In this document: positions 29,001 through 41,461 of the stretch, in pieces
Numbering within the stretch: the stretch's first letter is position 1
How the letters are laid out: every line of letters starts with the position of its first letter
Assembly: GCA_041947015.1 (NCBI GenBank)
Contig: JBHGBL010000003.1
Coordinates: 76,148-140,147 of the forward strand
DNA: 64,000 bases
Origin: Vicinamibacterales bacterium
Lineage (GTDB): Bacteria; Acidobacteriota; Vicinamibacteria; Vicinamibacterales; Fen-181
Direction: 5' to 3'
Position numbers and translations under genes: made by a program
The notes under the pieces: generated by a model
Told to the model about the DNA's origin: nothing
The model's database searches: none
What the model saw: the letters and a program-made list of their open reading frames with translations, nothing else

Positions 29001-29008
29001 ACCACCAG

Positions 29009-29227
29009 TCAGTCGTTTGAGTCAGTCTTGTTCTCGTCATCGCCCCAGGGTGAGGGTTGGGGGCCGGGCTTGATGCCGGCGATGTCCGGGTCTTCACCGC
29101 CAGATGGTCGTGGCGTTGCGGCCTTGCGGGCGCTCGCCGCCAGGCGGCGGGCCGTCTTCTGCTGCTGGCGTTCGCGGCGGACTTTCTCACGTTCACGCTT
29201 GAGGTGGGTGGGTCGCGACTTGTTCAT
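29009..29227 (-). CDS. hypothetical small protein with a strongly basic N-terminal half and an acidic C-terminal half
   Basis: About 72 aa (MNKSRPTHLKREREKVRRERQQQKTARR...DDENKTDSND), ending 9 nt upstream of the hppA start codon. It could instead be a spurious ORF in a leader region. Confidence 0.3.
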   Translation of the reverse strand: MNKSRPTHLKREREKVRRERQQQKTARRLAASARKAATPRPSGGEDPDIAGIKPGPQPSPWGDDENKTDSND

Positions 29228-29348
29228 GGGCCTCCATGTCGAGCTGCAGGCAGCGTCATCGAGGCCGAACGGATACACGGCCGTGCGCCCCGGGTGGTTT
29301 CATCCGCCACGCGCTCGAAGCGCACCGCTGCCCCAATTACATCAAGGC

Positions 29349-29435
29349 TGGTGCGGAAGCGGGGATTTGAACCCCGATGAGGTTGCCCTCACTAGCTCCT
29401 GAGGCTAGCGCGTCTGCCAGTTCCGCCACTTCCGC
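29349..29435 (-). tRNA. tRNA-Leu (anticodon CAG), class II with a long variable arm
   Basis: Reverse complement read by hand: GCGGAAGTGGCGGAACTGGCAGACGCGCTAGCCTCAGGAGCTAGTGAGGGCAACCTCATCGGGGTTCAAATCCCCGCTTCCGCACCA. It has a 7-bp acceptor stem, a D-arm, an anticodon stem CTAGC/GCTAG with loop CTCAGGA, the T-loop GGTTCAAATCC and an encoded CCA. Absent from the ORF track. Coordinates are +/-1. Confidence 0.85.
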
Positions 29436-29467
29436 GTCGGTCGAACCACTGGCCCGAACAAGTGATA

Positions 29468-30442
29468 CTACCTCAAACGGGCCCCGTTATTACAAGAGGT
29501 ACCGCTTTTTTCTCCGGGTGTTCCTTCCTTCCGGTATCGCGCGAGGTGCCCGTCCTCGATCCGCACGCGGAGGATGCGAACGTCTCCCGACTCGTCTCCT
29601 TTCGCGTCGTACATCAGCTTGTCCGCCCGGTCGACGAGTTCGAGGGCCAGGCGTCTCGCAGAGAACCTCCGTTCGCTCGGGCTCCCCATCCACAGGCAGA
29701 CGACCCCAACGTCCACACGGACGGGTTGGTCTGCCAGTCGCGGATCCACCTGCTTCCAGTCGTAGCGACCGACCGCTCGCCGGAAGCGGTCGGCAACAGC
29801 TCTCGCTTGAACGTCCTCGCCGAGGTCGGGTATCAGGAAGCAGAACTCGTCACCCCCGAACCTCGCATGCAGCTCCGGACGCCTCGACTTGGGGCCGTCC
29901 TGCGCAATCAGGTCGTCGGACCGGATCTGCTCCGCGAGCAGCCGCGCCACGCGCTCGATTATTCGGTCGCCCACGGCGTGGCCGAGCACGTCGTTGTACT
30001 GCTTGAAGCCGTGGATGTCCACCAGCCCTATCGCACACCACCGCACACGCTGCTCGACCTCCAGGAAAGACTCGAGCTGCGACATGAACCAGTCGAAATT
30101 CATCAGCTTGGTCTTCGGGTCGCGGTGCGAGCGCTCGGTCAGCTCGGCCACCAGCGACTCGAAGTACTGCCCGATGTTCGAGACGGTGGCGTTCCGGGCG
30201 GAAAGCTCCTCTCGCAGGCGGGCCAGTTTCTCGGTGAACCCGGCTGCAATCGCCCGGATCGCTTCGTCCTTCGATTCCTGCCACATCCGATGCTGCCGGT
30301 CCAGAACGAGGGCAATGGCATCCAGAAGCTCGCGTTCCCTTCTTGCCGGCAGGGCAAGGCTCGACCGTATCCACGCTTCGAGCTCGGAGCGGTCTCGCGG
30401 CGCGGCTCGCTCTTCCGGCGCTCCTTCGGCTCTCATCCGCAT
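29468..30442 (-). CDS. GGDEF-domain diguanylate cyclase with an N-terminal helical/coiled-coil region
   Basis: Active-site motif GGDEF (in FGGDEFCF) and I-site-like RxxD context. The start was re-set to MRMRAEG, which is preceded by GGGAG. Confidence 0.8.
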   Translation of the reverse strand: MRMRAEGAPEERAAPRDRSELEAWIRSSLALPARRERELLDAIALVLDRQHRMWQESKDEAIRAIAAGFTEKLARLREELSARNATVSNIGQYFESLVAELTERSHRDPKTKLMNFDWFMSQLESFLEVEQRVRWCAIGLVDIHGFKQYNDVLGHAVGDRIIERVARLLAEQIRSDDLIAQDGPKSRRPELHARFGGDEFCFLIPDLGEDVQARAVADRFRRAVGRYDWKQVDPRLADQPVRVDVGVVCLWMGSPSERRFSARRLALELVDRADKLMYDAKGDESGDVRILRVRIEDGHLARYRKEGTPGEKSGTSCNNGARLR

Positions 30443-30606
30443 AGGCTCCCGCCGCCTAGACCTGGGTGAGTAGACAATCATCGTGCCAGGCCGTAACCGC
30501 GCCTGCCTGTCGGGCTGTGGCTCGTGAGCGCCCCGGATCCCGGCGCTAGGTTCAGGCCTCTGCACTGAATGGCGATTCGGAGTGTAGCATCACGCTTCAC
30601 AATCCA

Positions 30607-30641
30607 TTGACTTCCCGGACCGCCTTCCTCAGAATCTGCGG
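30607..30641 (+). promoter_or_regulatory. candidate sigma-70 promoter (TTGACT - 17 nt - CAGAAT) for the nfeD-flotillin operon
   Basis: Hexamers read directly, followed by SD GAGGTG and the ATG at 30655. Confidence 0.3.
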
Positions 30642-30654
30642 TGTCGAGGTGAAC

Positions 30655-31191
30655 ATGAATTGGCTTCCCGCGTTGTCCCAGTTCTCGGTCTTTCTGGCCA
30701 TCGCGGCGGGCGGGTTTCTCCTCCTCCTCGTAACGCTCTTCTTCGGCGAGATCTTCGACAGCGACGCCGACGGCGGCGCCGACGTCGGCGGCGAGGGCGG
30801 CCCGGGTTTCTTCTCGAGCCGCGTCATTAGCGTGTTCGTGACCGCCTTCGGTGGTTTCGGGGCCGTCGGCACCTACTACGGGCTGTCGATGGTTCCCGCC
30901 TCGACCCTCGGTTTCGCCAGCGGCGTCGTCTTCGCCGCGGCAATCTACGGTTTTGCCAGGTTTCTTTACAGCCAGCAGGCTTCGTCCGAGGTCCGCTCGG
31001 CGGATCTCGTCGGCCTTCGTGCCCGCGTCGTCGTGGCAATCCCGGCCGGCAGCGTCGGCCAGGTCCGCTGCCAGGTCGGCGAGCAGATGGTGGACAAGAT
31101 AGCACGCTCCAGCGATGGGGCGGCGATACCCGAGAACGTCGCGGTCACGATAGACAGCGTCCTCGGTGAGGCAGTCGTGGTGCGCCGGTAA
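30655..31191 (+). CDS. NfeD-like membrane protein (short form with a C-terminal OB-fold), flotillin partner
   Basis: Hydrophobic N-terminal half, a Gly/Asp-rich linker and a C-terminal beta domain (GQVRCQVGEQMVDKIA...). It sits immediately upstream of a flotillin gene, the canonical NfeD-SPFH pairing. Confidence 0.65.
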   Translation: MNWLPALSQFSVFLAIAAGGFLLLLVTLFFGEIFDSDADGGADVGGEGGPGFFSSRVISVFVTAFGGFGAVGTYYGLSMVPASTLGFASGVVFAAAIYGFARFLYSQQASSEVRSADLVGLRARVVVAIPAGSVGQVRCQVGEQMVDKIARSSDGAAIPENVAVTIDSVLGEAVVVRR

Positions 31192-31213
31192 CAGGAGCCA
31201 GGAGGCGAAAGCG

Positions 31214-32788
31214 ATGCTCTTCGAGATGCTGTTCCTGCCGTTCGTCGTCCTTGCCGTCGTGCTGGCGCTGTTCATCGCCGGCCTGCTCTTCGCCCGCAAC
31301 TACATCAAGGTTTCCCCGAACGTCGTTGCGGTCTTCAGCGGCCGCAAGCGGAAGCTCAGCGATGGCCGCGTGGTCGGCTACCGGATGGTCAAGGGCGGTG
31401 CCGCCCTGCGGATCCCGCTCCTCGAGAAGGTCGAGTACCTCGCCCTCAATGTCATGACCATACCTCTCGAGATCAAGCGGGCGTACACGCTGAAGGGCGT
31501 CCCGGTGTCGGTCAAGGCCGTCGCGAACGTGAAGATACGCGGCGACGACACTTCGCTCCAGGCGGCCGCCGAGCGGTTCCTCGGCATGACGCACGATCAG
31601 ATCCAGCGCGTCATTTTCCAGACGCTGGAGGGCCACCTCAGGTCGATCCTCGGCACCCTCACGGTGGAGGAGATCAACAACGACCGTCAGAGTTTCGCAC
31701 AGAAGCTGACGAGCGAGGCGGCGGCTGATCTCGAGAAGATGGGCCTTGGCGTGGATGTCCTCACCATCCAGGAAATAAGCGACGATGAGGAGTACTTGAA
31801 CGCCCTCGGCAAGCGCAGGACTGCCGAGGTCAAGCGCGACGCGGCCATCGGCGAGGCAGAAGCGACGAGAGACGCCAAGATCAAGTCCGCAGAGGCTCTC
31901 CAGGAAGGCGAGCGCGCGCGTTTCAACGCGGAGGCGGAGATCGCCCTCGCCCAGCGCGACTTCATGATTCGCCAGGCGCAGTACCAGGCGGAGGTCGAGA
32001 CCGAGAAGGCGAAGGCGAAGCAGGCTGGCCCGCTGTCGGAGGCGAAGGCCAGGCAGAGCGTCGTGGCGGAGGAAGTCCGGATCGAGCGCGAGCGCACGCA
32101 GGAGTCGATATCGGTCCAGGAACAGGAAGTGCTGCGCAAGCAGAAAGAACTGGAGGCAACGGTAATCAAGCCTGCAGAGGCGGATCGCCAGGCGGCCGTG
32201 GTCAGGGCTGAGGCGTCCAAGCAGGCGGCTATCCTCGAGGCTGAAGGCCGCCGTGCCGCGCTGATTGCGCTCGCAGAAGCCGAACAGGAAAAGCTCAGAA
32301 AAGAAGGCGTGGGACGCGCCGCGGCCGTGGAGGTCGAAGGGAAGGCGGAGGCTGCGAAGATCGAGGCAATCGGCCTGGCGCAGGCCAAGGCAATCGAAGC
32401 GCAGGGAGTGGCCGAGGCCGCCGCCATCCTCAGGAAGGCCGACGCCTGGAAGCAGTTCAACGATGCCGCGAAGCTCCAGACAGTACTCGAGAAGCTGCCT
32501 GCGATCCTCCAGGCGTCCACGGGTGTCTTCGGCGCTGTGGCTTCACCGCTCGGAAACATCGACAAGCTTGTCATCATCGACCAGGGAAGCGGCGTGGGAA
32601 ACGGGACAACCGGCGTCGAGCGGCTGGCGAAGACCAGCCCCGCTGTGGTCTTCAACCTGCTGCAGCAGCTCGAGGCGCTGGGCCTCAACGTCCCCTCTGT
32701 CCTCGCACAGCTCGGCGTCGGAGCGCCTGCATCTGCGGTTTCTGGCCCTGACGTCACGGCTGCTGTCGCGACCGGTCCGCGCGGCTGA
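31214..32788 (+). CDS. floT: flotillin-family SPFH/band-7 protein (FloT/YuaG-like)
   Basis: An N-terminal transmembrane helix, an SPFH domain, then a long Ala/Glu-rich coiled-coil flotillin repeat (EAEGRRAALIALAEAEQEKLRKEG...). The start was re-set to the ATG at 31214, which has a GGAGG SD. Confidence 0.85.
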   Translation: MLFEMLFLPFVVLAVVLALFIAGLLFARNYIKVSPNVVAVFSGRKRKLSDGRVVGYRMVKGGAALRIPLLEKVEYLALNVMTIPLEIKRAYTLKGVPVSVKAVANVKIRGDDTSLQAAAERFLGMTHDQIQRVIFQTLEGHLRSILGTLTVEEINNDRQSFAQKLTSEAAADLEKMGLGVDVLTIQEISDDEEYLNALGKRRTAEVKRDAAIGEAEATRDAKIKSAEALQEGERARFNAEAEIALAQRDFMIRQAQYQAEVETEKAKAKQAGPLSEAKARQSVVAEEVRIERERTQESISVQEQEVLRKQKELEATVIKPAEADRQAAVVRAEASKQAAILEAEGRRAALIALAEAEQEKLRKEGVGRAAAVEVEGKAEAAKIEAIGLAQAKAIEAQGVAEAAAILRKADAWKQFNDAAKLQTVLEKLPAILQASTGVFGAVASPLGNIDKLVIIDQGSGVGNGTTGVERLAKTSPAVVFNLLQQLEALGLNVPSVLAQLGVGAPASAVSGPDVTAAVATGPRG

Positions 32789-32803
32789 TGGCGCTTGTGC
32801 GCG

Positions 32804-32835
32804 AGGTTCCTTGCCGCGCGAACGGCAAGGAACCT
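32804..32835 (+). terminator. strong stem-loop (13-bp perfect stem, 6-nt loop) 16 nt after the flotillin stop
   Basis: aggttccttgccg cgcgaa cggcaaggaacct read directly, followed by an A/T-containing tail. Confidence 0.5.
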
Positions 32836-32890
32836 ACAATTGGATCTCCGACCGAACTTAGACTTCCTGACCGCCCTGCCGGAGGCAGCG

Positions 32891-34393
32891 ATGGTACCGG
32901 GTGTCCGCGTCGTACTTCTTGCGATTTGTCTCGCGAGCCTGGCGCCGCTTCTCGCGGGTGCCCGCGCTCCGCACGACGTCGACGTGCAGATCCAGCTCGG
33001 CGATCTCCTGTATGCGAGCGGCCGCTACCGGGAATCGCTCGAGGCATACCAGCGCGCCGATCGGCTCGGCGAGGGGCCTTCGAGGATTCGCGCGAAGATG
33101 GGCCTCATACGTTCGGCTCTTCGCATCGCTGAATTCGACCTCGCGACAGAGCACGCGAGGCTCCTTCAGAAGCTCGCGCCCGACAACGATGATGCTACCG
33201 CGCTTCGCGGCGACGCCGCATGGGCGGCAGGCCACTTCGACGAGGCTGAGGCCATGGCGAAGGATGTCCTCGGCCGGTTGCCGGGCCATGCGAGAGCGCG
33301 CCTCGGGCTCGCGAGGTCGCTCGCCGGTCGCAACCAGCTGCAGGCAGCCTTCGGCGAGGCGCAGGCGGCGCTCGCCTCCGCGCCGTCGGACCCGGAGGTC
33401 CACTTGCTCCTCGGGTCCCTCAACCAGCGGCTCCGCCGGGTGCCCGAGGCCATCGCCTCGTACACGAATTACATCAATCTGTTGCCGAACAAGGACCGCG
33501 GGACGATGGCTGTCTGGGCCCGCTCCGAGATCCGCCTGCTGCAGTCCTACGGGAACAGGATCCCACTCCAGATCGACCCGCGGTCAGCGGGCAGGGTCCA
33601 CGAGATCCCGTTCCGACTCGATCGCGGCAAGGTGATCGTGTCGGGGCGTGCCAACGGCCGGCCCGTGCAGTTCACCGTCGACACGGGCGCGGAGCACACG
33701 GTCCTCACCGTGAAGACGGCCGAAAGGGTGGGAGTAAAGCCGATTGTCACGACGCTCAGCGCCGGCGTCGGCGAGGTCGGCCTGCGCGGGCTGCAAGTCG
33801 GGCGGCTCGACTCGCTCGAGGTCGGGACATTCAAGGTCGACAATGTCCGCTGCATGGTCAAGAACCCGCCACTGACTGGCCTGCCGACGGCTGAAACCGA
33901 AGCGTTTTCGCCGTTGGCGCTGGGTCTGTCGGCGGAACTCGACTACGCCGCGCGCACCCTGAAGATCGGCGAGTCGATCCCGGTAGTTCCCGCAGACGTC
34001 GAACTGCCGCTCAGGGTCAACCGTCTGGCAACCATCCGCGGCGTCGTGAACGACGACCGGCAGACCAACTTCGTCGTGGACACGGGCGGGGAAGTGCTCT
34101 CGATCAGCACGTCCACGGCCCGAACTCTTCTCCCGCCGCCTCGGCCCATCCGTATAAGGCTCAAGGTCTACGGCACCTCGGGTTGGGACACCGAGGCGTA
34201 CCTGCTCCCGGGCGTGGACCTCGAGTTCGACGAGATCCGCTTCCAGGATGCCTCGGTCGTGGTGCTGGACCTTCGGGCGCCCAGCGTCCTGCTGGGGTAC
34301 CAGATCGGCGGGATCATCGGGCACACGGTGCTGAGCAAGTACCGCGTCGCGTTCGACCTGGAGAGGAGCGTCCTGCGCCTCAAGCGCCTGTGA
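32891..34393 (+). CDS. secreted TPR-repeat protein with two tandem retropepsin-like (clan AA) aspartic protease domains
   Basis: Signal peptide after the ATG at 32891 (GGAGG SD), TPR-like helical repeats, then two DTG catalytic motifs (FTVDTGAEHTVL and FVVDTGGEVLSI). This is a pseudo-dimeric pepsin-like arrangement. Confidence 0.7.
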   Translation: MVPGVRVVLLAICLASLAPLLAGARAPHDVDVQIQLGDLLYASGRYRESLEAYQRADRLGEGPSRIRAKMGLIRSALRIAEFDLATEHARLLQKLAPDNDDATALRGDAAWAAGHFDEAEAMAKDVLGRLPGHARARLGLARSLAGRNQLQAAFGEAQAALASAPSDPEVHLLLGSLNQRLRRVPEAIASYTNYINLLPNKDRGTMAVWARSEIRLLQSYGNRIPLQIDPRSAGRVHEIPFRLDRGKVIVSGRANGRPVQFTVDTGAEHTVLTVKTAERVGVKPIVTTLSAGVGEVGLRGLQVGRLDSLEVGTFKVDNVRCMVKNPPLTGLPTAETEAFSPLALGLSAELDYAARTLKIGESIPVVPADVELPLRVNRLATIRGVVNDDRQTNFVVDTGGEVLSISTSTARTLLPPPRPIRIRLKVYGTSGWDTEAYLLPGVDLEFDEIRFQDASVVVLDLRAPSVLLGYQIGGIIGHTVLSKYRVAFDLERSVLRLKRL

Positions 34394-34438: not shown

Positions 34439-37400
34439 TCAGAAATCGTACCCGATCCACACCTGAAACCGCGGCTTCCGGAACGATGCCGATCCGCCCG
34501 ACCCCGCATACACGAGGTCCTCCCACTGTCGATTGAAGAGTGTCCGCCAGGACCAGTCGAAGTGCAGCGGGAAACCCAGGACGAACGTCTCCAGACCGAT
34601 CCCATAGGAAGCTCGCCCGTCGCGCAGCCGGAACCCGGAAACATCGACCGGATCTCCATAGACCGGATCGAAAGTCAGCGTCTCGAAATTGGGCTGGTAG
34701 CCGATGATCGGCGTGAACCGCTCGGTCTTCGTCTCGAAGAACCTGTAGCCGCTGTCGTTCCACCAGCCGCCGCCCATGTCGGCGAAGAAGACGCCCCTTA
34801 CGCCGCCGAGGACGCCGATTGGCGTCAGCATCGCCTCGATGATTGGGAAGCGGAGCTCCGCGTTCAAGAAGACGGCGTTCTGGCCCAGGAACTCCAGGTA
34901 GTCGTAGCCGCGCATCTCGGAGTTCCCGCCGAAGAAGAGGAAGTCCGGCGCGGCGCCCCAGCTCTTGAAGCCGCGTGCGCGCAGCGCGAGGACGCCGGTT
35001 CCGGCCAGTCGGATGTACTGGCGAAGGTCGACGTCGACGGTCTGGCGAGAGAGCGAGTTGCCGATCTTCGGCGCCACCTCGTAGGAGATGCGCATCGTGT
35101 TCCCCGCAAGCGGGCCAAACTCGCGGAAGACCGTCGTCTCCTGGACGAAAGCGATGCTGATCGGCATGAAGGTGCCGCTCTGGATGAGCTGGTTCCCGTA
35201 GTAGAGCTCCTGGTAATCCTGGGAAGCTTGCTCGAGGTCCGCATTGTTGAACGACTCTTTGTACTGAAGGAGCGCGCCAGACACCTCGAGCCGCCGGTAG
35301 AGATCGAGCGGGTAGATGCCGAAGACACTGCCGCCCTGGATGGTCCGCGTCGCGACGGCATCGTCACGGTCGAGGAAGGTGCTGTAGTACGGATCGAAAA
35401 ACAGCCCAGGGTCGTAGCCGTAATAGAAGAGCTTCTGGGAGAAGCCCTGCACGGCCCACTGTAGGCGGCGCGAGAGGTCGACGTACGATGCTCCGTACGA
35501 GCGGTATTGCGAGATCGAGCCGGCGAAGATGTTCAGGCGCCTGTCTCCCAGGACGTCCGTGAACGACACTTGCGTGCCGCCGAAGATGTCGCCGCCGCTC
35601 GTCACCCCCACGTTGACCGGCGGGCGTCCGTCGAGGAACAGCTTTTCGAAGGTGCCCTTCCGTTTCGAATTCTCGCGGACCAGCGAGTGCGTGAGAGGGG
35701 CCTGGAAGTCGATGACCGGGCCTGGCGCGCCGAAGTCGGCCGAGGCGGCGGTGCTCATCGGCTCGGTCCGTTCCAGCGTGTGCAGGCCGTACTCGCCCTT
35801 GTCGTACGAGATGAAAGCGATCTTCGGGGCAGAAGCCTGCTTGATGACCACCGGCGCTACGTTCGCGCCGAGTGCGTCTGTCCACTGCCGCAGTTCCCCC
35901 GTTTCGAGGTCCAGCGTCCAGATGTTGTACGCGACACCGTTCTTCGCGATGTCCGGGTCCACCGGCTGCATCGGGTCGGTCGCCGTCGATGCGAAGACGA
36001 TCGTCTTATCGTCGATGAACCGCGCTGCCGCGTCATCGTGCGTCCCGAAGGTTACCTGCGTCTTCTTCTTCGTGTCGAGGTCGAGGCGGAACAGCTTGTC
36101 GTTGCCGCTGATCCTGGCCAGGTAGACGATGAACCGCCCGTCGGGCGAGAAGACCGGCGCGAAGTCCCAGAACTCGTCGTCGGTCAGGTTGGTTACTTTC
36201 CTGGTCTCGAGATCGACCTGGAAGATGTCGCCGCGAGCGTTTCGCAGGCCGGCGAAAACGACCGTCTTGCCGTCCGGCGAGATGTGGGGGGACTCGGGCT
36301 CGTCCACGGTCGGCAGGTCGATACGGTGCTCGATCGCCTTGGTGAGGATGTTCTGGAGGACCAGGACCCGGTTGGCGCGGCTGCGCACGAAGTACGCGAT
36401 GCGATCGCCGCCTGGCGACCACGACATCCACGAGACCGTATTCCAGCGGCGGCCCGGGAGCGATATGCTCTCGAAGCCGTAGTCCTGGTCGAAGCCGGAG
36501 GTAAGGTTGCGAATGACGGAGCCGTCCTTGGCCGACACGATGACGATGTCGAGTTCCCGGTCGCGGCGGTTGCCCGTCATCAGGGCGAAGAGGTCGCCCG
36601 AGGGCGAGGGTTCGGCGGAAAGTGCATTGGAGTACCTGGTCTTGTCGCTGTCCGGGGCGAGGTTCTTGCCATAGTCGCCGGGGCGTTCCTTGTCGCGGAA
36701 CGGCTTGAAGCGGTCCTTCAGGTACTTCTCGAACTCCTGGTCGAACTCCTCCGGCTTGATCCTGAACGCTTCCTCGTAGGCGTTCTCTCCCCCGCCGATG
36801 ACGCTCTTGCGCAGGGCGAAGAGGAACTGGCGGATCCCGTCCTTGCCCCAACGCGACTCCATGAACTCGAAGGCGGCATGGCCCAGGTTGTAGACGAGGC
36901 GGGGATTGCCGAACTCGCCGTACCCCTCCATCTCGGTCATCTTCGGAACGATGTCGCTCACGGCAGCGTCGCGTACTGTGGCGAGGTCGAGCGGGGCCCA
37001 GTAGCCAGTCATGTAGTCGGACAGTCCCTCGTTGATCCAGAGCGGCGTATTGGCCCTGATGAGGGACGGCGGGATGATATCGAACTCGAAGATGTGCGTC
37101 AGCTCGTGCACGATCAGGCGGTACAGCAGGTCCGGTGGATCATCGAGCGGGAGCAGCATGCGGTTGTTGTCGCTTTCGGCGAAGGCGGCCACGCCCTCGA
37201 CCGCTGCGCCCGGGATGACGTTCTCCTGCTGGAATTCCGTGTGCGTCTTGAAGACTATCAGCGGGACCTTGAAGGCGAGGTCGTGCTTCAGTTCGGAGCT
37301 GATTTGCTGGTAGGCGCTCTCTGCGTAACCGGCCACCCGTTCGAGGTGCGTCTCCGTTTCCGGATAGTAGTAGATCTCGAAGTGATCGGTCTTGTAGATG

Positions 37401-37549
37401 TGCCAGTCGAACCTGTCGTAGCGGACTATGTTCTTCCCGTAGTAGGGGACGAAGGGCGTCTGCGCCAGCGAGGCACCCGTGAACGACAGGACCATCGAAC
37501 CCGCGAGAAACACCCGTGGGAGAAAGCGACCCGCAAATGGGGTACGCAT
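34439..37549 (-). CDS. 1036-aa outer-membrane protein fusing an N-terminal HExxH zinc-metallopeptidase-like domain, a TolB/PD40 beta-propeller and a C-terminal Omp85-like beta-barrel
   Basis: Signal peptide; a HELTH zincin motif (IVHELTHIFEF); multiple PD40-like blades (SWSPGGDRIAYF, ISPDGKTVVFAG, FSPDGRFIVYLA); and a C-terminal region that ends in the aromatic outer-membrane-protein signature ...QVWIGYDF. Confidence 0.7.
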   Translation of the reverse strand: MRTPFAGRFLPRVFLAGSMVLSFTGASLAQTPFVPYYGKNIVRYDRFDWHIYKTDHFEIYYYPETETHLERVAGYAESAYQQISSELKHDLAFKVPLIVFKTHTEFQQENVIPGAAVEGVAAFAESDNNRMLLPLDDPPDLLYRLIVHELTHIFEFDIIPPSLIRANTPLWINEGLSDYMTGYWAPLDLATVRDAAVSDIVPKMTEMEGYGEFGNPRLVYNLGHAAFEFMESRWGKDGIRQFLFALRKSVIGGGENAYEEAFRIKPEEFDQEFEKYLKDRFKPFRDKERPGDYGKNLAPDSDKTRYSNALSAEPSPSGDLFALMTGNRRDRELDIVIVSAKDGSVIRNLTSGFDQDYGFESISLPGRRWNTVSWMSWSPGGDRIAYFVRSRANRVLVLQNILTKAIEHRIDLPTVDEPESPHISPDGKTVVFAGLRNARGDIFQVDLETRKVTNLTDDEFWDFAPVFSPDGRFIVYLARISGNDKLFRLDLDTKKKTQVTFGTHDDAAARFIDDKTIVFASTATDPMQPVDPDIAKNGVAYNIWTLDLETGELRQWTDALGANVAPVVIKQASAPKIAFISYDKGEYGLHTLERTEPMSTAASADFGAPGPVIDFQAPLTHSLVRENSKRKGTFEKLFLDGRPPVNVGVTSGGDIFGGTQVSFTDVLGDRRLNIFAGSISQYRSYGASYVDLSRRLQWAVQGFSQKLFYYGYDPGLFFDPYYSTFLDRDDAVATRTIQGGSVFGIYPLDLYRRLEVSGALLQYKESFNNADLEQASQDYQELYYGNQLIQSGTFMPISIAFVQETTVFREFGPLAGNTMRISYEVAPKIGNSLSRQTVDVDLRQYIRLAGTGVLALRARGFKSWGAAPDFLFFGGNSEMRGYDYLEFLGQNAVFLNAELRFPIIEAMLTPIGVLGGVRGVFFADMGGGWWNDSGYRFFETKTERFTPIIGYQPNFETLTFDPVYGDPVDVSGFRLRDGRASYGIGLETFVLGFPLHFDWSWRTLFNRQWEDLVYAGSGGSASFRKPRFQVWIGYDF

Positions 37550-37774
37550 TGTTCACCTCGTCAAGCTGTATGGCCGGCAGGCATGAACGATATTACCGTC
37601 AGGCACCGAACGCCTGCAAACGAAACGAGAGTCCGGCTCACGGATGAGCAAGAGCCGTACCATGCGCCCGATTCACGCCAACCCCCACTCGACCCTGAGT
37701 GCCAGGATCGTGTGGACGTTTCTGGCCGTCGAGGTGCTCTGCCTGGTTTCCGCCGTGAGCGCTGCGTTCGCCGT

Positions 37775-39190
37775 TCAGCGCTGCATCGTACCCGACGGTG
37801 CCGACACAGACCCGATCGTCCTCGTCGCCGTGATTATGCGGCGAATCCGGAAGCTCCCGGCCTTGCCGGATGGCTCGAGGAGGAAGAGGTCGGCCGGCTG
37901 TCCCGTTGCTATGGTCCGCTCGCTCGGCATCTGCTTCCAGTCCGGAAGCTGCACGATGTCGCCGACCTGGTGCCCGAAGCCGAAGGCAGGCGCCAGCGTC
38001 AGCCCGGTGCCGTCCACTATCTCGTAGGCGCCCCAGAAGGAGAGATCCCCGAGATCGTCGATGCTCAGCGCCTCGACCAGCTGCCGTTCCGTCGCGCTCA
38101 CCCGAACGCGCCGGTTCGCTCCAACGCCCACGTCCGAGACGAACGGCGGTATCCCGATGCCGTTGACGATCGAGACGTTGCGAAAGAGCAGGTAGAGCAT
38201 CTGCGACTGGTTCTCCTCGAGCGAGTCGTAGCGGGCCTTGTCCACCTCGTGCACTCTCCCGGTCGCCAGCGCGTCGAGCGACGACATCACGGCGATGAAG
38301 TTCAGCCTGACGAGCTGCGGTTCGTGCGGAGGCTCCGGGTACCCGCCGGTCTCGATCAGTACGACCGGGGTGCCCCACATCGTGACGTTGTCTCCGAAGG
38401 CGCGCGGGTTGAACGTTTCGTCGTACTTGGCGACGTATCCTGGTGCGAACGGCTGCAGGGCATCGGCGATGACCGAGCACACGCGCTTGGCGAGCAGCCT
38501 GCCTTCGTTCTCGCTGAGCTCCTTGTCGTAAGCGACCGCGAGCAGTGAAATCGCTGCAGGCCGGGGCGGTTCACCGCTCGAGGTGCGCCACCCTTGGTTG
38601 TGGAGGTTGAAACCGATCTGAGGCTGGAGCCGATCCCTGAGCGCTTTGAGGATGCGCCCCTCCGGGGTGGTCAGGCGCAGCGCGTCGCGGTTGATGTCGA
38701 TTCCCATGGCGTTCGCGCGTTGCCACCTGGCGGCTCCATCCGGGTTGAGCATTGGCACCACGTGGACCGTCAGCTGGTCGAGGATTCGTTGGATCGGCTC
38801 GTCAGATCTGTGCTTCGCGAAGTACTCCAGCACGTCGAAGAGAGCGGAGGTCGCGTGCGGCTCGTTGCCGTGCATCTGGGACCACATCAGGACGCGGAAC
38901 TTGCCGTGTCCGAACCAGATGTGGTTGATCGAGCGCCCCTCGACCGACTTGCCGATCTCTTCGAGCGAGAAGAGGTCGGGCGCCGCTCTGCGTGCCTCGC
39001 TCAATCGCTGCACGACGTCCTCGTGGATGACGAGTTGCGGGAACGGTGACGAGATGTGCTCCGCGTCCCACACCGAGGCGAGGGCCTTTGGGGTCATACC
39101 AGGCGACTGGGGACTGGCCACAGCCCAAGAGGCGCACGACACCAGGGCGGCGGCAAGGGCTGCCACCGATCTGTTGCTGCGGTCAGGCAT
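37775..39190 (-). CDS. M14-family zinc carboxypeptidase, secreted
   Basis: Has the zinc-ligand motif HGNE (QMHGNEPHA) and a signal peptide after the re-set start MPDRSNRSVAALAAAL. Confidence 0.7.
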   Translation of the reverse strand: MPDRSNRSVAALAAALVSCASWAVASPQSPGMTPKALASVWDAEHISSPFPQLVIHEDVVQRLSEARRAAPDLFSLEEIGKSVEGRSINHIWFGHGKFRVLMWSQMHGNEPHATSALFDVLEYFAKHRSDEPIQRILDQLTVHVVPMLNPDGAARWQRANAMGIDINRDALRLTTPEGRILKALRDRLQPQIGFNLHNQGWRTSSGEPPRPAAISLLAVAYDKELSENEGRLLAKRVCSVIADALQPFAPGYVAKYDETFNPRAFGDNVTMWGTPVVLIETGGYPEPPHEPQLVRLNFIAVMSSLDALATGRVHEVDKARYDSLEENQSQMLYLLFRNVSIVNGIGIPPFVSDVGVGANRRVRVSATERQLVEALSIDDLGDLSFWGAYEIVDGTGLTLAPAFGFGHQVGDIVQLPDWKQMPSERTIATGQPADLFLLEPSGKAGSFRIRRIITATRTIGSVSAPSGTMQR

Positions 39191-39472
39191 GACGTTCTTC
39201 CTCCTTTCGAGGGCGCTCGAGATTCTACCTGGGCCCATTGGAAACCGAACGCCGCGAGCTTGTTTCGGATGACCCCTTGTGCGGAATCGGCATGGGCCTG
39301 TGCCGGGCCGACCCGAAGACGTCCCCCGACCGATCGAGTCGGATCATGCCCCCCAGTTTCCGCGGGTTTCGCGGTCTTGGGGCCTCCGCTGAAGTGCCCC
39401 GGGAGGTGGCTCCGGTATACTGGGGGAATAAACGAGGCGGCATCAGTGTTTTCCGGAAGGGTCGGCTGAATC

Positions 39473-40063
39473 GTGTTCGGGCGTGGACGCCGGCCCACCG
39501 GGGCGGCCCGGACGAGTGCCGCGGACAGCTTCGAGGACCAGGCGCTCGGCTTCCTCGACGCGCTGTACGGTACGGCCCTCCGGCTGACCCGAAACCCCGC
39601 AGATGCCGAGGATCTCGTGCAGGAGACCTACCTGAAAGCGTTCCGGTCGGCAGGCCAGTTCAAGCCGGACACGAACCTGAAGGCCTGGCTCTTCACCATC
39701 CTCCACAACACGTTCCTCAACTCCAAGCGGAGAACCGGCAAGGAGCCCATCGTCGAGAGCGAGATAGTCGAGCGCGCGGCATCCACGGCGACGGGGCCGG
39801 AAGAGTCCCCGGAACAGTTGCTGCTGCGCGAAACGATAGACCTCGACCTGCAGCAGGCGCTCGACGAGCTGCCCGAGGTGTTCAGGGAAGCTGTCTGGTT
39901 GCGCGATGTCGAGGAGTTCTCGTACGCCGAGATCGCGGCGATGCTGGACGTGCCTGTAGGGACGGTCATGTCCCGGATATCGCGAGGCCGGCGAGCGCTA
40001 CACAAGGCGCTGGTGAGCCGCTCGGATCGGTACCGTCGGATGGAGGTTGCGGAGCGCAGCTGA
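39473..40063 (+). CDS. ECF-subfamily RNA polymerase sigma-70 factor
   Basis: Has region 2 ([11 protein letters not shown]...WLFTILHN) and region 4 ([25 protein letters not shown]). The start is GTG. Confidence 0.85.
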
Positions 40064-40100
40064 TGCCGGCTGGTGCCGGCAGGCGGGTGCGGCGGGCAAA

Positions 40101-40859
40101 ATGGCGAACTGCGAAGATATCGAGCGATTGATCGCGCCCTACGTGGACGGCGGGATCGACGAGCGTGAGAAGGAGCGGGTGGCCGCGCACCTAGGTGCGT
40201 GCGCGCCGTGCCGAAACACGGCCGGCAGGGAAGCCGCTGCGCGGCAGGTTCTCCACGCCCGAGCGAAAGCTCTCGTTCCCCGCGCGTCCACGGATCTAAG
40301 GGCGCGCTGTGCGCGCACCGCCGGTGCGCCATCCTCCCTGGCGTGGGTCGGCAGAGGAGCTTCAGCCTGGCGCAGGGCGGCCGTTCCGCTCGCAGCTGCT
40401 GCCAGCCTGCTCTTGGGTGTCGCCGCGATATATGCTACCCGGGCGACGACCGCCTCGCTCGCCGCTCAGCTCACCCTGGATCACGTGAAGTGTTTCACGC
40501 TGTTCTCTGAGCCCGTCACTCGCGTCGACCCTGAAACAGTTTCACGGTCGCTCGAATCGGCCTATGGTCTGCGGGTCGATGTGCCGGCCGGGCTGGATGA
40601 GGAGGGCCTCAGGCTGCTGGGAGCGCGGCGCTGCCTGACGGCGGACGGCCGGGTGGCACACGTGCTCTACCGTCACGATGGACACAACGTCTCGCTCTTC
40701 GTCATCCCCGGTTACGAGTGGAAGGCCGGCGCCAGGTCCCTGATGGGGCACGAGACAATTGTCTGGTCCGCCAACGGCAATGGCTACGCCGTGGTCGGCG
40801 CCCAGCCGGCAGGCGAGCTGCGGCGTGCAGCGTACCTCCTGCAGCGGAAACTGCGTTGA
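40101..40859 (+). CDS. anti-sigma factor with an N-terminal zf-HC2 motif, one transmembrane segment and a periplasmic domain
   Basis: MANCEDIERLIAPYVDG...HLGACAPC (H-x3-C-x2-C) directly downstream of the ECF sigma gene. Confidence 0.75.
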   Translation: MANCEDIERLIAPYVDGGIDEREKERVAAHLGACAPCRNTAGREAAARQVLHARAKALVPRASTDLRARCARTAGAPSSLAWVGRGASAWRRAAVPLAAAASLLLGVAAIYATRATTASLAAQLTLDHVKCFTLFSEPVTRVDPETVSRSLESAYGLRVDVPAGLDEEGLRLLGARRCLTADGRVAHVLYRHDGHNVSLFVIPGYEWKAGARSLMGHETIVWSANGNGYAVVGAQPAGELRRAAYLLQRKLR

Positions 40860-40903
40860 ATGCCCGGCCGCAGCGCGGCCGGATCGAACCCCTGAGGAGA
40901 TCG

Positions 40904-41461
40904 ATGAGAAGACCGTGGATGCTCGCAGCGCTGATTGCCGCCGTCATCATCACGGCAGTCACGTTCCTGCCGATGGCGCCCGAGCCTGAGGGGGATTCGG
41001 GCAGCCAGGCGACGGGCGGACGGGGGCCGGGTTGCGCGGCCGACGCCCCCTTGGCGAACCTGGATTTCGTGATGCAGAACATGCACGGGCGTCAGGTGAA
41101 CCTCGCGGACCTCAAAGGCAAGGTCGTGCTGATCAACTTCTGGGCGACCTGGTGCCCGCCGTGCAGGGTCGAGATCCCCGAGTTCGTCGACCTCCAGGAG
41201 AAATACCGCGACGAAGGACTGGCCGTCGTGGGCATCTCGGTTGACGACCCGATCGAGAGCCTCGCCTCCTTCGCGTCGGAGTTCGACGTCAACTACGAGA
41301 TCCTCGTCGGGCGTGACCGCGAGGACGTGCAGGAGGCGTTCGGGCCGATAATGGGCGTACCCACGAGCTTCATAATCGGGCGCGACGGCCGCGTGTGCTA
41401 CCACCGGCCGGGGCTCGCGAGCAAGGAGGAATTCGAACGGGAGATCCGCGCGCTGCTGTAG
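40904..41461 (+). CDS. TlpA/ResA-like thiol:disulfide oxidoreductase (thioredoxin fold, WCPPC), membrane-anchored
   Basis: N-terminal anchor, then FWATWCPPCRVEIPEF. The start was re-set to the ATG at 40904, which has a GAGGAG SD. Confidence 0.8.
   Translation: MRRPWMLAALIAAVIITAVTFLPMAPEPEGDSGSQATGGRGPGCAADAPLANLDFVMQNMHGRQVNLADLKGKVVLINFWATWCPPCRVEIPEFVDLQEKYRDEGLAVVGISVDDPIESLASFASEFDVNYEILVGRDREDVQEAFGPIMGVPTSFIIGRDGRVCYHRPGLASKEEFEREIRALL

What the first reader, a model, noticed from the sequence alone, without database searches (positions are those of the whole stretch)
34439..37549. Outer-membrane protein fusing a zincin peptidase, a TolB/PD40 propeller and an Omp85-like barrel
A single 1036-aa secreted polypeptide carries three parts. 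The first is a HExxH (HELTH) metallopeptidase-like N-terminal domain. The second is a multi-blade PD40 propeller of the kind that binds peptidoglycan or peptides in TolB. The third is a C-terminal beta-barrel that ends in the classic aromatic outer-membrane-protein terminus (WIGYDF). I do not know of a characterised protein with this arrangement. It would place a protease active site on or under the outer membrane, tethered by its own barrel, like a self-contained surface protease or substrate-gating machine. It is convergent with a TPR-tandem-retropepsin protease. An M14 carboxypeptidase, an ECF sigma/anti-sigma pair and a TlpA oxidoreductase follow within 4 kb, which suggests a coordinated envelope-proteolysis function.
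Basis: partly seen in the sequence, partly recalled or inferred. Interest (0 to 1): 0.75.

Follow-up and report, generated by a model that had tools for sequence, protein, structure and literature searches.

The report
Omp85-anchored zinc peptidase with TolB-like propeller
This gene from an acidobacterium (order Vicinamibacterales) encodes one secreted protein that joins a zinc peptidase, a six-bladed propeller and a BamA-type outer-membrane barrel; the layout is real and strongly conserved, but it was catalogued in 2014 as the "WD40-like" Omp85 subfamily, whose function nobody has tested.

Summary
An intact 1036-aa ORF lies at 34439-37549, on the minus strand. It has a signal peptide and three domains:
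- A six-bladed PD40 propeller, which matches TolB.
- An Omp85 barrel, which matches BamA. It carries the loop-6 RGY motif, the FxDxG motif and a C-terminal aromatic signal.

It is not a frameshift fusion: 82 related loci encode the same full-length protein.

The arrangement is not new. Heinz & Lithgow (2014) defined a "WD40-like" Omp85 subfamily with the same three fold matches, and I found no experimental study of it.

The proposed proteolysis neighbourhood is only partly supported:
- The M14 carboxypeptidase is absent from all 82 related loci.
- The ECF sigma/anti-sigma/TlpA genes and the TPR-retropepsin gene are conserved neighbours, but they are divergent or convergent to the target.
- The target has its own conserved sigma-70-type promoter.

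The most likely function is a periplasm-facing peptidase tethered to the outer membrane. Surface export is not excluded.

More distant relatives sit in a conserved operon of small TPR protein, lipoprotein and Omp85 fusion. This copy lacks it.

The parts
34439..37549 (-). Whole gene: 1036-aa precursor of a peptidase-PD40-Omp85 fusion (WD40-like Omp85 subfamily). 100% identical to an NCBI MAG Vicinamibacterales 'hypothetical protein'.
37590..37619 (-). Sigma-70-like promoter TTGCAG-N18-TAATAT, starting 70 nt upstream of the ATG. The same TTGC[GA]G-N17/18-TA(A/C)(G/C)AT arrangement occurs in 55 of 80 upstream regions (the window plus 79 related loci).
   Evidence: the generic consensus scan did not list it because its hexamer thresholds are stricter
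37554..37559 (-). Shine-Dalgarno GAGGTG, 5 nt before the ATG.
   Evidence: read directly
37463..37549 (-). Signal peptide, residues 1-29 (…FTGASLA|QTP).
   Evidence: sequence inspection; AF2 pLDDT <50 for residues 1-36
36650..37438 (-). Gluzincin (clan MA, M1/M9/M30-like) catalytic domain, residues ~38-300.
37094..37108 (-). HELTH zinc-binding and catalytic motif (H148, E149, H152). Invariant in 41 diverse full-length relatives.
37028..37030 (-). E174, in W-I-N-E-G, 21 residues after H152: the third zinc ligand. Invariant, together with G175.
36890..36892 (-). Y220, invariant. It aligns with the Tyr of the 'PYvKG' motif of the M1 aminopeptidase 3cia. That this Tyr is the transition-state Tyr of M1 enzymes is from established knowledge.
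35735..36637 (-). Six-bladed PD40 (TolB-like) beta-propeller, residues ~305-605.
34442..35629 (-). Omp85 (BamA/TamA-type) beta-barrel, residues ~641-1036. No POTRA domain lies between the propeller and the barrel.
34904..34912 (-). Loop-6 R880-G-Y motif, which aligns with VRGF of BamA. R880 is invariant.
34442..34465 (-). C-terminal beta-signal …QVWIGYDF. The terminal aromatic residue is conserved in the family.
32795..34393 (+). Context only: convergent gene for a secreted TPR protein with two retropepsin domains, each with DTG. A conserved neighbour within Vicinamibacterales; no functional link is shown.
37775..39238 (-). Context only: M14 carboxypeptidase gene inserted between the ECF sigma gene and the target. 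Absent at this position in all 82 related loci.
39473..41461 (+). Context only: ECF sigma (39473-40063), zf-HC2 anti-sigma (40047-40859) and a TlpA-like thioredoxin (listed ORF 40718-41461; domain at its residues 116-232). Conserved upstream, in divergent orientation.

Best explanation
The gene encodes a member of the WD40-like Omp85 subfamily: a zinc metallopeptidase held at the outer membrane by its own barrel.

**Proposed mechanism.**
1. The precursor is exported by Sec (signal peptide; inferred).
2. [quoted passage not shown]
3. The N-terminal 570 residues stay on the periplasmic side, as the N-terminal domains of BamA, TamA and FhaC do (inferred, not shown).
4. There the six-bladed TolB-like propeller acts as a docking or filtering platform.
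5. The gluzincin domain (HExxH-x21-E plus Tyr) cuts unfolded polypeptides or peptides close to the inner face of the outer membrane. The likeliest role is envelope protein quality control or trimming, comparable to what BepA does next to BAM in E. coli.

The gene is transcribed from its own housekeeping-type promoter and not as part of an operon with its neighbours.

**Shown here:** the three folds, conservation of the catalytic and Omp85 motifs, family membership, and the independent promoter.

**Inferred:** topology, substrate and physiological role.
For: **Folds and motifs.**
- AF2 model: pLDDT 84.5, pTM 0.77, three domains.
- A profile-to-PDB alignment to an M1 aminopeptidase covers HExxH, WxxEG and the Tyr.
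- H148, E149, H152, E174, G175 and Y220 are invariant across 41 full-length relatives at 26-59% identity. They are also invariant in a 15-sequence set of the most distant relatives. This argues for retained catalysis.
- The propeller matches TolB.
- The barrel matches BamA/TamA, with aligned RGY (loop 6), FxDxG and C-terminal motifs.

**Family.**
- The same three Phyre2 matches were tabulated for the WD40-like Omp85 cluster in 2014.
- The family is large: 1248 cluster representatives at E<=1e-30.

**Transcription.**
- A conserved sigma-70-like promoter lies upstream of the gene in 55 of 80 upstream regions, including the window.

**Periplasmic setting.**
- Six of six distant relatives are preceded, on the same strand, by a small TPR protein and a 218-280-aa secreted protein. 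In four of the six that protein has a lipobox.
- This is the kind of periplasmic accessory set that BAM has, for example the TPR lipoprotein BamD (established knowledge).
Against: - **Topology.** Nothing here measures it, and the model coordinates could not be inspected.
- **Cysteine content.** The soluble 570-residue part has no cysteine. It is Cys-free in 21 of 41 relatives, with a median of 1. Passengers that cross the outer membrane unfolded share this trait, so surface export remains possible.
- **Pfam score.** The window protein scores below the Peptidase_MA_2 gathering threshold (23.8 against 32.4 bits).
- **Missing partners.** This ortholog group lacks the TPR/lipoprotein operon partners seen in distant relatives. 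Arguments drawn from that operon transfer only indirectly.
- **Function.** No substrate, activity or phenotype is known for any member.
Confidence: 0.55

Rival explanations
1. Self-exporting surface protease, working like the type Vd secretion system PlpD. The Omp85 barrel translocates the N-terminal peptidase-propeller passenger to the cell surface. There the passenger digests external proteins for nutrition, or is released.
For: - There is a precedent: PlpD is an Omp85 barrel that exports its N-terminal patatin domain (discussed in PMC4104836).
- The soluble part is cysteine-free or cysteine-poor across the family, as autotransporter passengers typically are.
- Secreted proteases are encoded nearby (M14, retropepsin).
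Against: - There is no POTRA domain between passenger and barrel, whereas PlpD-type proteins have one (PF01734+PF07244+PF01103).
- The passenger includes a compact six-bladed propeller.
- Distant relatives are co-encoded with a TPR protein and a lipoprotein. This looks like a periplasmic complex, although surface lipoproteins do exist in some phyla.
- M14 is not a conserved neighbour.
- Low Cys content is also seen in the neighbouring secreted proteins (2 per ~500 aa).
Confidence: 0.22
2. A specialised BamA-like insertase or translocase. The propeller plays a BamB-like scaffold role, which is the idea put forward by Heinz & Lithgow. The zincin domain is mainly a substrate-binding module and not an enzyme.
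For: - The barrel keeps the hallmark Omp85 functional motifs with invariant residues: loop-6 RGY, FxDxG, E898/R900. This is more conservation than a passive anchor would need.
- The authors of the subfamily suggested a BamA-BamB-like fusion.
Against: - All catalytic residues of the zincin (HExxH, E174, Y220) are invariant down to 26% identity. This is hard to explain without catalysis.
- There are no POTRA domains, which BamA and TamA use for substrate handling.
- This reading is not exclusive of the best explanation: the barrel could capture beta-signal-bearing substrates for the peptidase.
Confidence: 0.12
3. Assembly or frameshift artefact that joins two or three separate genes.
For: None was found. 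The only ground is the unusual length.
Against: - The gene is present in all 82 related loci, with near full-length matches in most.
- Collinear full-length homologues of about 930-1050 aa exist in other phyla.
- AF2 models one continuous chain at pTM 0.77.
Confidence: 0.01

Closest known systems
WD40-like Omp85 subfamily (Heinz & Lithgow 2014, Front Microbiol 5:370, PMC4104836)
   Same: - Same order of domains: aminopeptidase/collagenase-like domain, TolB-like PD40 propeller, BamA/TamA-like barrel, no POTRA.
- The same PDB folds are recovered here (4ar1-type collagenase, F3 1z1w, ERAP1 3qnf, 4fgm; TolB; BamA).
   Different: - This protein belongs to a Vicinamibacterales-specific ortholog group at 61-100% identity.
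- That group lacks the TPR + lipoprotein genes that precede the more distant members I examined.
- The subfamily has no experimentally characterised member.
BamA / TamA (Omp85 insertases)
   Same: - Barrel fold with about 16 strands.
- Loop-6 (V/I)RG(F/Y) motif, FxDxG motif and C-terminal aromatic signal.
   Different: - No POTRA domains.
- The N-terminal region is an enzyme plus a propeller.
- Sequence identity to BamA barrels is only about 15%.
PlpD (type Vd secretion, patatin-Omp85)
   Same: An enzyme domain fused N-terminal to an Omp85 barrel in one polypeptide.
   Different: - PlpD carries a patatin lipase and a POTRA domain.
- Here there is a zincin, a propeller and no POTRA.
- Export of the passenger is not shown here.
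TolB (Tol-Pal system)
   Same: Six-bladed PD40 propeller; the best sequence and fold match for residues ~305-605.
   Different: - No TolB_N domain in this protein.
- No tol-pal genes nearby.
- TolB is a soluble periplasmic protein.
Clan MA(E) gluzincins: M1 aminopeptidases, M9 collagenase peptidase domain, M30 lugdulysin/hyicolysin; Pfam Peptidase_MA_2
   Same: - Thermolysin-like catalytic domain.
- HExxH plus a Glu about 20 residues downstream in WxxEG, plus a Tyr.
   Different: - Only the ~250-aa catalytic module is present. There is no M1 N-terminal beta domain, no C-terminal helical domain and no clear GxMEN exopeptidase motif.
- Identity is 9-13%.
- Endo- versus exopeptidase action cannot be told.
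BepA (E. coli M48 metalloprotease with TPR domain that docks on BAM)
   Same: A functional analogy only: a periplasmic zinc protease working at the outer-membrane assembly site (established knowledge).
   Different: - A different peptidase family (M48).
- BepA is a separate soluble protein and not fused to a barrel.
- No homology is claimed.
Tricorn protease
   Same: The precomputed Pfam hits Tricorn_N and Tricorn_2nd fall on the propeller.
   Different: - No PDZ or S41-type catalytic domain was detected.
- The resemblance is limited to the propeller repeats.

Membership tests
Omp85 superfamily | C-terminal 16-stranded transmembrane beta-barrel of the BamA type | tested here: met
   - Foldseek to BamA barrels: E 1.7e-10, TM 0.62-0.68 normalised to the barrel-only targets; also TamA.
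- Family profile against PDB: BamA 5e-11.
- The DSSP string gives 16 membrane strands if the 943-970 hairpin is counted as loop 7.
- The strand count was not checked on coordinates.
Omp85 superfamily | Loop-6 (V/I)RG(F/Y) motif | tested here: met
   E-M-R880-G-Y aligns with T-V-R-G-F of Salmonella BamA. R880 is invariant in 41 relatives.
Omp85 superfamily | Conserved FxDxG-type motif on the strand facing loop 6 | tested here: met
   F922-A-D924-M-G926 aligns with F-W-D-M-G of BamA. These residues are nearly invariant.
Omp85 superfamily | One or more N-terminal POTRA domains | tested here: not met
   No Pfam or NCBIfam POTRA hit. The AF2 secondary structure between the propeller and the barrel (603-644) has no beta-alpha-alpha-beta-beta unit. 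The absence is typical of the WD40-like and noNterm subfamilies.
Omp85 superfamily | C-terminal beta-signal ending in an aromatic residue | tested here: met
   The protein ends in …WIGYDF. A terminal F/W/Y is seen in most of the full-length representatives listed.
WD40-like Omp85 subfamily (Heinz & Lithgow 2014) | PD40/WD40-like repeats N-terminal to the Omp85 barrel, with TolB as the best structural match | tested here: met
   compared with Tables S2/S3 of the paper.
WD40-like Omp85 subfamily (Heinz & Lithgow 2014) | Aminopeptidase/collagenase-like domain at the extreme N-terminus (Phyre2 column 'best aminopeptidase hit') | tested here: met
WD40-like Omp85 subfamily (Heinz & Lithgow 2014) | Direct sequence clustering with the UniProt members listed in their Table S1 | not testable with these tools
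   UniProt sequences could not be fetched. Relatives outside Acidobacteriota with the same three Pfam domains (named Candidatus Poribacteria) were found.
Gluzincin metallopeptidases (clan MA(E); Pfam Peptidase_MA_2) | HExxH motif on the active-site helix | tested here: met
   H148-E-L-T-H152, invariant. It lies in helix 139-158 of the model.
Gluzincin metallopeptidases (clan MA(E); Pfam Peptidase_MA_2) | Third zinc ligand Glu about 18-25 residues after HExxH | tested here: met
   E174 in WINEG, 21 residues after H152, is invariant. It aligns with the WLNEG motif of M1 aminopeptidase 3cia.
Gluzincin metallopeptidases (clan MA(E); Pfam Peptidase_MA_2) | Thermolysin-like catalytic fold | tested here: met
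Gluzincin metallopeptidases (clan MA(E); Pfam Peptidase_MA_2) | Score above the Pfam gathering threshold | tested here: not met
   23.8 bits against a cut-off of 32.4 for the window protein. Many relatives carry a precomputed PF13485 hit.
Gluzincin metallopeptidases (clan MA(E); Pfam Peptidase_MA_2) | Zinc binding and peptidase activity | not testable with these tools
   Needs biochemistry.
M1 aminopeptidase family proper | GxMEN exopeptidase motif, plus the flanking N-terminal beta domain and C-terminal helical domain | tested here: not met
   - The domain is only about 250 aa.
- The stretch upstream of HExxH reads GVAAFAES. E125 is more than 90% conserved, but this is not GxMEN.
- The profile alignment to 3cia starts after that region.
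TolB | TolB_N domain plus six-bladed propeller, encoded in a tol-pal operon | tested here: not met
   Only the propeller is present. No tol or pal genes lie within 10 kb.
Type Vd autotransporter (PlpD) | Patatin passenger + POTRA + Omp85 barrel | tested here: not met
   No patatin and no POTRA. Only the barrel is shared.
Tricorn protease | Two propellers followed by PDZ and an S41-like serine protease domain | tested here: not met
   Only propeller-level hits, PF26549 and PF26550. No PDZ or S41 hit.

The most novel reading that the evidence does not exclude
The family may be the core of an undescribed outer-membrane quality-control machine that is widespread outside the Proteobacteria.
- The Omp85 barrel would recognise beta-signal-bearing outer-membrane proteins that are stalled or misassembled.
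- The propeller would hold them, and the fused gluzincin would degrade them.
- In most lineages a dedicated small TPR protein and a TolB_N-like lipoprotein, encoded in the same operon, would assist.

The window protein would then be a lineage-specific paralogue that works without those partners, or with the neighbouring TPR-retropepsin protein instead.
Probability: 0.15. Interest if true: 0.7.

Novelty: new member of a known kind. Interest (0 to 1): 0.35.

Why it matters
Omp85 proteins are the central machines of outer-membrane biogenesis. Several of the subfamilies defined in 2014 still have no known function.

This one fuses a peptidase that is evidently under strong purifying selection at its active site to a BamA-type barrel. 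It is abundant: more than a thousand 50%-identity clusters, found in Acidobacteriota, Poribacteria and other phyla.

Working out whether it degrades proteins under the outer membrane or on the cell surface would add a new functional class to the Omp85 family. It could also explain how bacteria without BepA-type proteases police outer-membrane assembly.

For this particular window the result is mostly a correct annotation. It is a good, typical member, not a new architecture.

Tried and rejected
1. **Translation on the + strand** gave only stops. The ORF is on the minus strand.
2. **Frameshift or fusion artefact:** rejected by 82 related loci that contain the gene, most with near full-length matches.
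3. **M14 carboxypeptidase as a functional partner:** rejected, absent from 0 of 82 loci.
4. **Control by the ECF sigma factor:**
   - I looked for a shared motif upstream of the target in 79 related loci plus the window.
   - The only enriched signal is a sigma-70-like TTGC[GA]G-N17/18-TAAGAT pair.
   - No ECF-type promoter was recognised, so co-regulation is unsupported, though not excluded.
5. **Neighbourhood conservation beyond the order:** six distant relatives have none of the window's neighbours.
6. **Accessory lipoprotein or a second paralogue in the window:** searched for and not found.
7. **Tricorn protease relationship:** only propeller-level similarity.
8. **Literature search for any characterised member:** six searches found only the 2014 classification and later citations.
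9. **Fold search against afdb50:** the library was unavailable.
10. **First genome scan with the very diverse alignment** failed for lack of conserved stretches. The second scan returned only the 80 best loci, nearly all labelled Vicinamibacteria or Acidobacteriota, so phyletic breadth rests on protein searches and the 2014 paper.
11. **Cluster look-up of ten distant representatives** gave almost no organism names.


Full report
**1. The observation**

The coordinates 34439-37549 hold a single ORF of 1036 codons on the minus strand, with an ATG start. The plus-strand translation is full of stops.

A GAGGTG Shine-Dalgarno sequence lies 5 nt upstream of the ATG. The first 29 residues look like a Sec signal peptide ending in ASLA|QT, by sequence inspection. 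AF2 gives pLDDT below 50 for residues 1-36.

The protein is 100% identical to a 'hypothetical protein' of an NCBI Vicinamibacterales MAG. The window is about 65% G+C throughout.

**2. The three domains**

Single-sequence HMM scans give weak but consistent signals:

| Model | E-value | Residues |
|---|---|---|
| PD40 | 1e-8 | |
| TolB propeller | 2e-20 | 376-523 |
| Peptidase_MA_2 (23.8 bits, below the 32.4 cut-off) | 4.5e-5 | 94-249 |
| flagellinolysin-type HExxH model | 6e-6 | |
| Omp85_fam | 9e-5 | 809-931 |

An AlphaFold2 model built from 86 homologues has mean pLDDT 84.5 and pTM 0.77. It shows:
- an alpha/beta domain at residues 50-295;
- 24 strands in six groups of four at residues 311-602, which is a six-bladed propeller;
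- a long run of antiparallel strands at residues 645-1032.

*Whole-model fold search.* Foldseek against PDB finds TolB (1e-11), BamA barrels (1.7e-10; TM 0.62-0.68 relative to barrel-only chains) and TamA.

*N-terminal domain.* Modelled alone it has pLDDT 77.
- All top 40 hits are clan-MA metallopeptidases.
- Foldseek agrees.

*Zincin profile.* A profile of the domain hits the M1 aminopeptidase 3cia at 5e-4. The alignment covers HExxH, the WxxEG motif and the Tyr of the 'PYxKG' motif.

*Barrel profile.* A profile of the barrel hits BamA at 5e-11. 'TLRGY' aligns to the loop-6 VRGF motif, 'FxDxG' to FWDMG, and the C-terminal strand to that of BamA.

No POTRA domain is detected or modelled between the propeller and the barrel.

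**3. Conservation**

An exhaustive search of 1.84 billion cluster representatives finds 1248 clusters at E<=1e-30. Many are full-length proteins of 930-1050 aa at 26-59% identity. In an alignment of 41 such proteins:
- the invariant columns include H148, E149, H152, P169, E174, G175, Y220 and R130 in the peptidase;
- in the barrel they include R880 (the RGY motif), G874, E898 and R900;
- F922, D924 and G926 are nearly invariant.

The same peptidase residues stay invariant in the 15 most distant sequences. This pattern is what a working gluzincin active site and a functional Omp85 barrel would show. It argues against a degenerate peptidase module.

The ORF is not a sequencing fusion. All 82 related loci contain the gene (80 from the genome collection and 2 fetched earlier, mostly labelled Vicinamibacteria or Acidobacteriota). 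Most show near full-length matches.

**4. What is already known**

Heinz & Lithgow (2014, PMC4104836) divided the Omp85/TpsB superfamily into subfamilies, one of which is 'WD40-like'.
- Their Table S2 lists PF07676 (PD40) plus PF01103 architectures.
- Their Table S3 lists, for about 100 members, Phyre2 matches to BamA/TamA (4k3b, 4c00), to TolB (2w8b, 2ivz), and, in a column headed 'best aminopeptidase hit', to 1z5h, 4kxd, 3qnf, 4fgm, 4ar1 and 4ar9.
- Their text discusses only a possible BamA-BamB-like fusion.
- A 2024 paper summarises the subfamily as having 'divergent WD40 and peptidase domains'.

My fold searches return the same families and partly the same entries. The window protein therefore meets every defining feature I could test. 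Six literature searches found no experimental work on any member.

Relatives from Candidatus Poribacteria carry all three Pfam domains. NCBI names them 'BamA/TamA family outer membrane protein', 'PD40 domain-containing protein' or 'peptidase MA family metallohydrolase'.

**5. The neighbourhood**

| Coordinates | Strand | Gene |
|---|---|---|
| 32795-34393 | + | TPR plus two retropepsin domains |
| 37775-39238 | - | M14 carboxypeptidase |
| 39473-40063 | + | ECF sigma |
| 40047-40859 | + | zf-HC2 anti-sigma |
| ending at 41461 | + | TlpA-like thioredoxin |
| beyond | | MacAB-like genes |

Across the related loci that have enough flank:

| Neighbour | Present | Orientation |
|---|---|---|
| TlpA | 65 of 66 | opposite strand, upstream |
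| ECF sigma | 54 of 73 | opposite strand, upstream |
| anti-sigma | 52 of 68 | opposite strand, upstream |
| TPR-retropepsin | 44 of 65 | convergent, downstream |
| M14 carboxypeptidase | 0 of about 68 on either side | n/a |

The M14 gene is therefore an insertion particular to this genome.

Upstream of the target, the only enriched signal in 80 upstream regions (the window plus 79 related loci) is a sigma-70-like pair. It reads TTGC[GA]G-N17/18-TAAGAT/TAACAT and is present in 55 of 80. In the window it reads TTGCAG-N18-TAATAT at 37619-37590, inside the 225-bp spacer after the M14 gene. The gene thus appears to have its own housekeeping-type promoter. I saw no ECF-type promoter.

All of this synteny lies within one class at 61-69% protein identity, so it may reflect common descent and not function.

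In six more distant relatives (29-46% identity; Acidobacteriota, Polarisedimenticolia, a second Vicinamibacteria group, Poribacteria and others) none of these neighbours is present.

**6. A conserved operon in the distant relatives**

In all six of those loci the Omp85 fusion is the last gene of a tight same-strand unit. A small TPR protein (109-188 aa) comes first. A 218-280-aa secreted protein with no Pfam family on record immediately precedes the target. In one locus, L087, three small unannotated genes lie between the TPR gene and that protein.
- The TPR proteins are mutually 33-53% identical.
- In four of the six the second protein has a lipobox. One has a weak TolB_N match (2.9e-4).
- The window and the 82 window-type loci contain no homologue of the lipoprotein.
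- The small TPR proteins give weak hits to the TPR part of the neighbouring retropepsin gene in four loci (E 1e-4 to 1e-6). TPR repeats cross-match easily, so I give this little weight.

The window gene therefore looks like a lineage-specific version that lacks the canonical partners. Alternatively those partners are encoded elsewhere in the genome.

**7. Mechanism**

The folds, the active-site conservation and the Omp85 motifs are shown here. The following steps are inferred from established Omp85 biology (BamA, TamA, FhaC):
- Sec export;
- BAM-dependent insertion through the C-terminal aromatic signal;
- a periplasmic location for the N-terminal 570 residues.

On that reading the protein is a zinc peptidase held under the outer membrane. 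The propeller would serve as a docking or filtering element, as propellers do in TolB, the S9 peptidases and Tricorn. The likely job is trimming or removing unfolded envelope proteins, analogous to BepA at the BAM complex. The accessory TPR protein and lipoprotein of the canonical operon fit a periplasmic complex.

The main rival is PlpD-like export of the passenger to the surface.
- *For it:* the soluble part has no cysteine, and it is Cys-free in 21 of 41 relatives.
- *Against it:* there is no POTRA domain, and the passenger is a compact propeller.

I cannot decide endo- versus exopeptidase action. The closest folds include both (M9 and M30 endopeptidases, M1 aminopeptidases), and there is no GxMEN motif.

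**8. Limits**

- Model coordinates and PAE were not available. The 16-strand count (11 strands before loop 6 and 5 after, if 943-970 is a loop-7 hairpin) and the relative orientation of the domains are therefore not verified.
- The afdb50 library was unavailable.
- The genome scan returned only the best 80 loci.
- Whether one genome holds both paralogue types could not be tested.

**9. Verdict**

This is a new member of a known but uncharacterised kind. Interest is moderate to low for this locus. The family as a whole remains a worthwhile experimental target.

Noticed in passing
L083:5808-9880, L084:5843-10054, L085:5936-9967, L086:3492-7910, L087:2277-7958, L088:3913-7781: In six of six distant relatives (29-46% identity, several phyla) the peptidase-PD40-Omp85 gene ends a tight same-strand unit. 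A small TPR protein (109-188 aa) comes first, and a 218-280-aa secreted protein with no Pfam family immediately precedes the target. In L087 three small unannotated genes lie between the TPR gene and that protein. I found no description of this operon in the papers I searched.
   Followed up: partly
L086:4121-4918 (also L085:6228-6992, L087:4159-5001, L088:4310-5011): In four of the six loci the unannotated protein upstream of the target has a lipobox (for example LAGVGC). One has a weak TolB_N match (2.9e-4) and another a faint CsgG match. TolB's two domains may therefore be split here between a lipoprotein and the Omp85 fusion. The evidence is weak.
   Followed up: partly
window 37775-39238 (-): The M14 carboxypeptidase gene sits between the ECF sigma gene and the target only in this genome. 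None of the 82 related loci has an M14 gene within 6 kb. It looks like a recent insertion into a conserved divergent gene pair.
   Followed up: partly
window 32795-34393 (+): Secreted protein with TPR repeats and two retropepsin-like domains, each with an intact D-T-G (FTVDTGAE, FVVDTGGE), so a single-chain pseudo-dimeric aspartic protease. It is the convergent downstream neighbour in 44 of 65 related loci with enough flank. The likely true start is the Met 32 codons into the listed ORF (MVPGVRVVLL…).
   Followed up: partly
window 37590-37619 (-) and the equivalent position in L001-L082: A well conserved promoter-like pair, TTGC[GA]G-N17/18-(G)TAAGAT/TAACAT, stands out in otherwise diverged intergenic DNA of Vicinamibacterales (55 of 80 upstream regions, including the window). 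It may be a useful sigma-70 consensus for this poorly studied group.
   Followed up: partly
L012, L021, L025, L038, L066, L080 (titles 'uncultured Bifidobacteriaceae'), L028 ('Betaproteobacteria'): Several public MAG records that carry 61-67% identical orthologues, several of them with the same neighbouring genes, are labelled Bifidobacteriaceae or Betaproteobacteria. The labels are probably wrong, since the loci look like Vicinamibacteria.
   Followed up: no
P0396 (cluster of P0270): A full-length family member with an Omp85 barrel is attributed to 'Candidatus Yanofskybacteria'. That is a CPR lineage, which is generally thought to lack an outer membrane. This is either misbinning or something worth checking.
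   Followed up: no
window 34442-37549 (-), residues 30-610: The whole 1036-aa protein has no cysteine. The soluble part is Cys-free in 21 of 41 diverse relatives (median 1 Cys in ~570 residues).
   Followed up: partly
window 26391-32788: Other genes nearby, none of which recurs next to the target in related loci: an 869-aa ORF that looks by eye like an H+-translocating pyrophosphatase (26391-29000, -; not run against any family library), a GGDEF protein (29468-30565, -), a small membrane protein with no Pfam hit (30607-31191, +), and a flotillin/SPFH protein (31166-32788, +).
   Followed up: no
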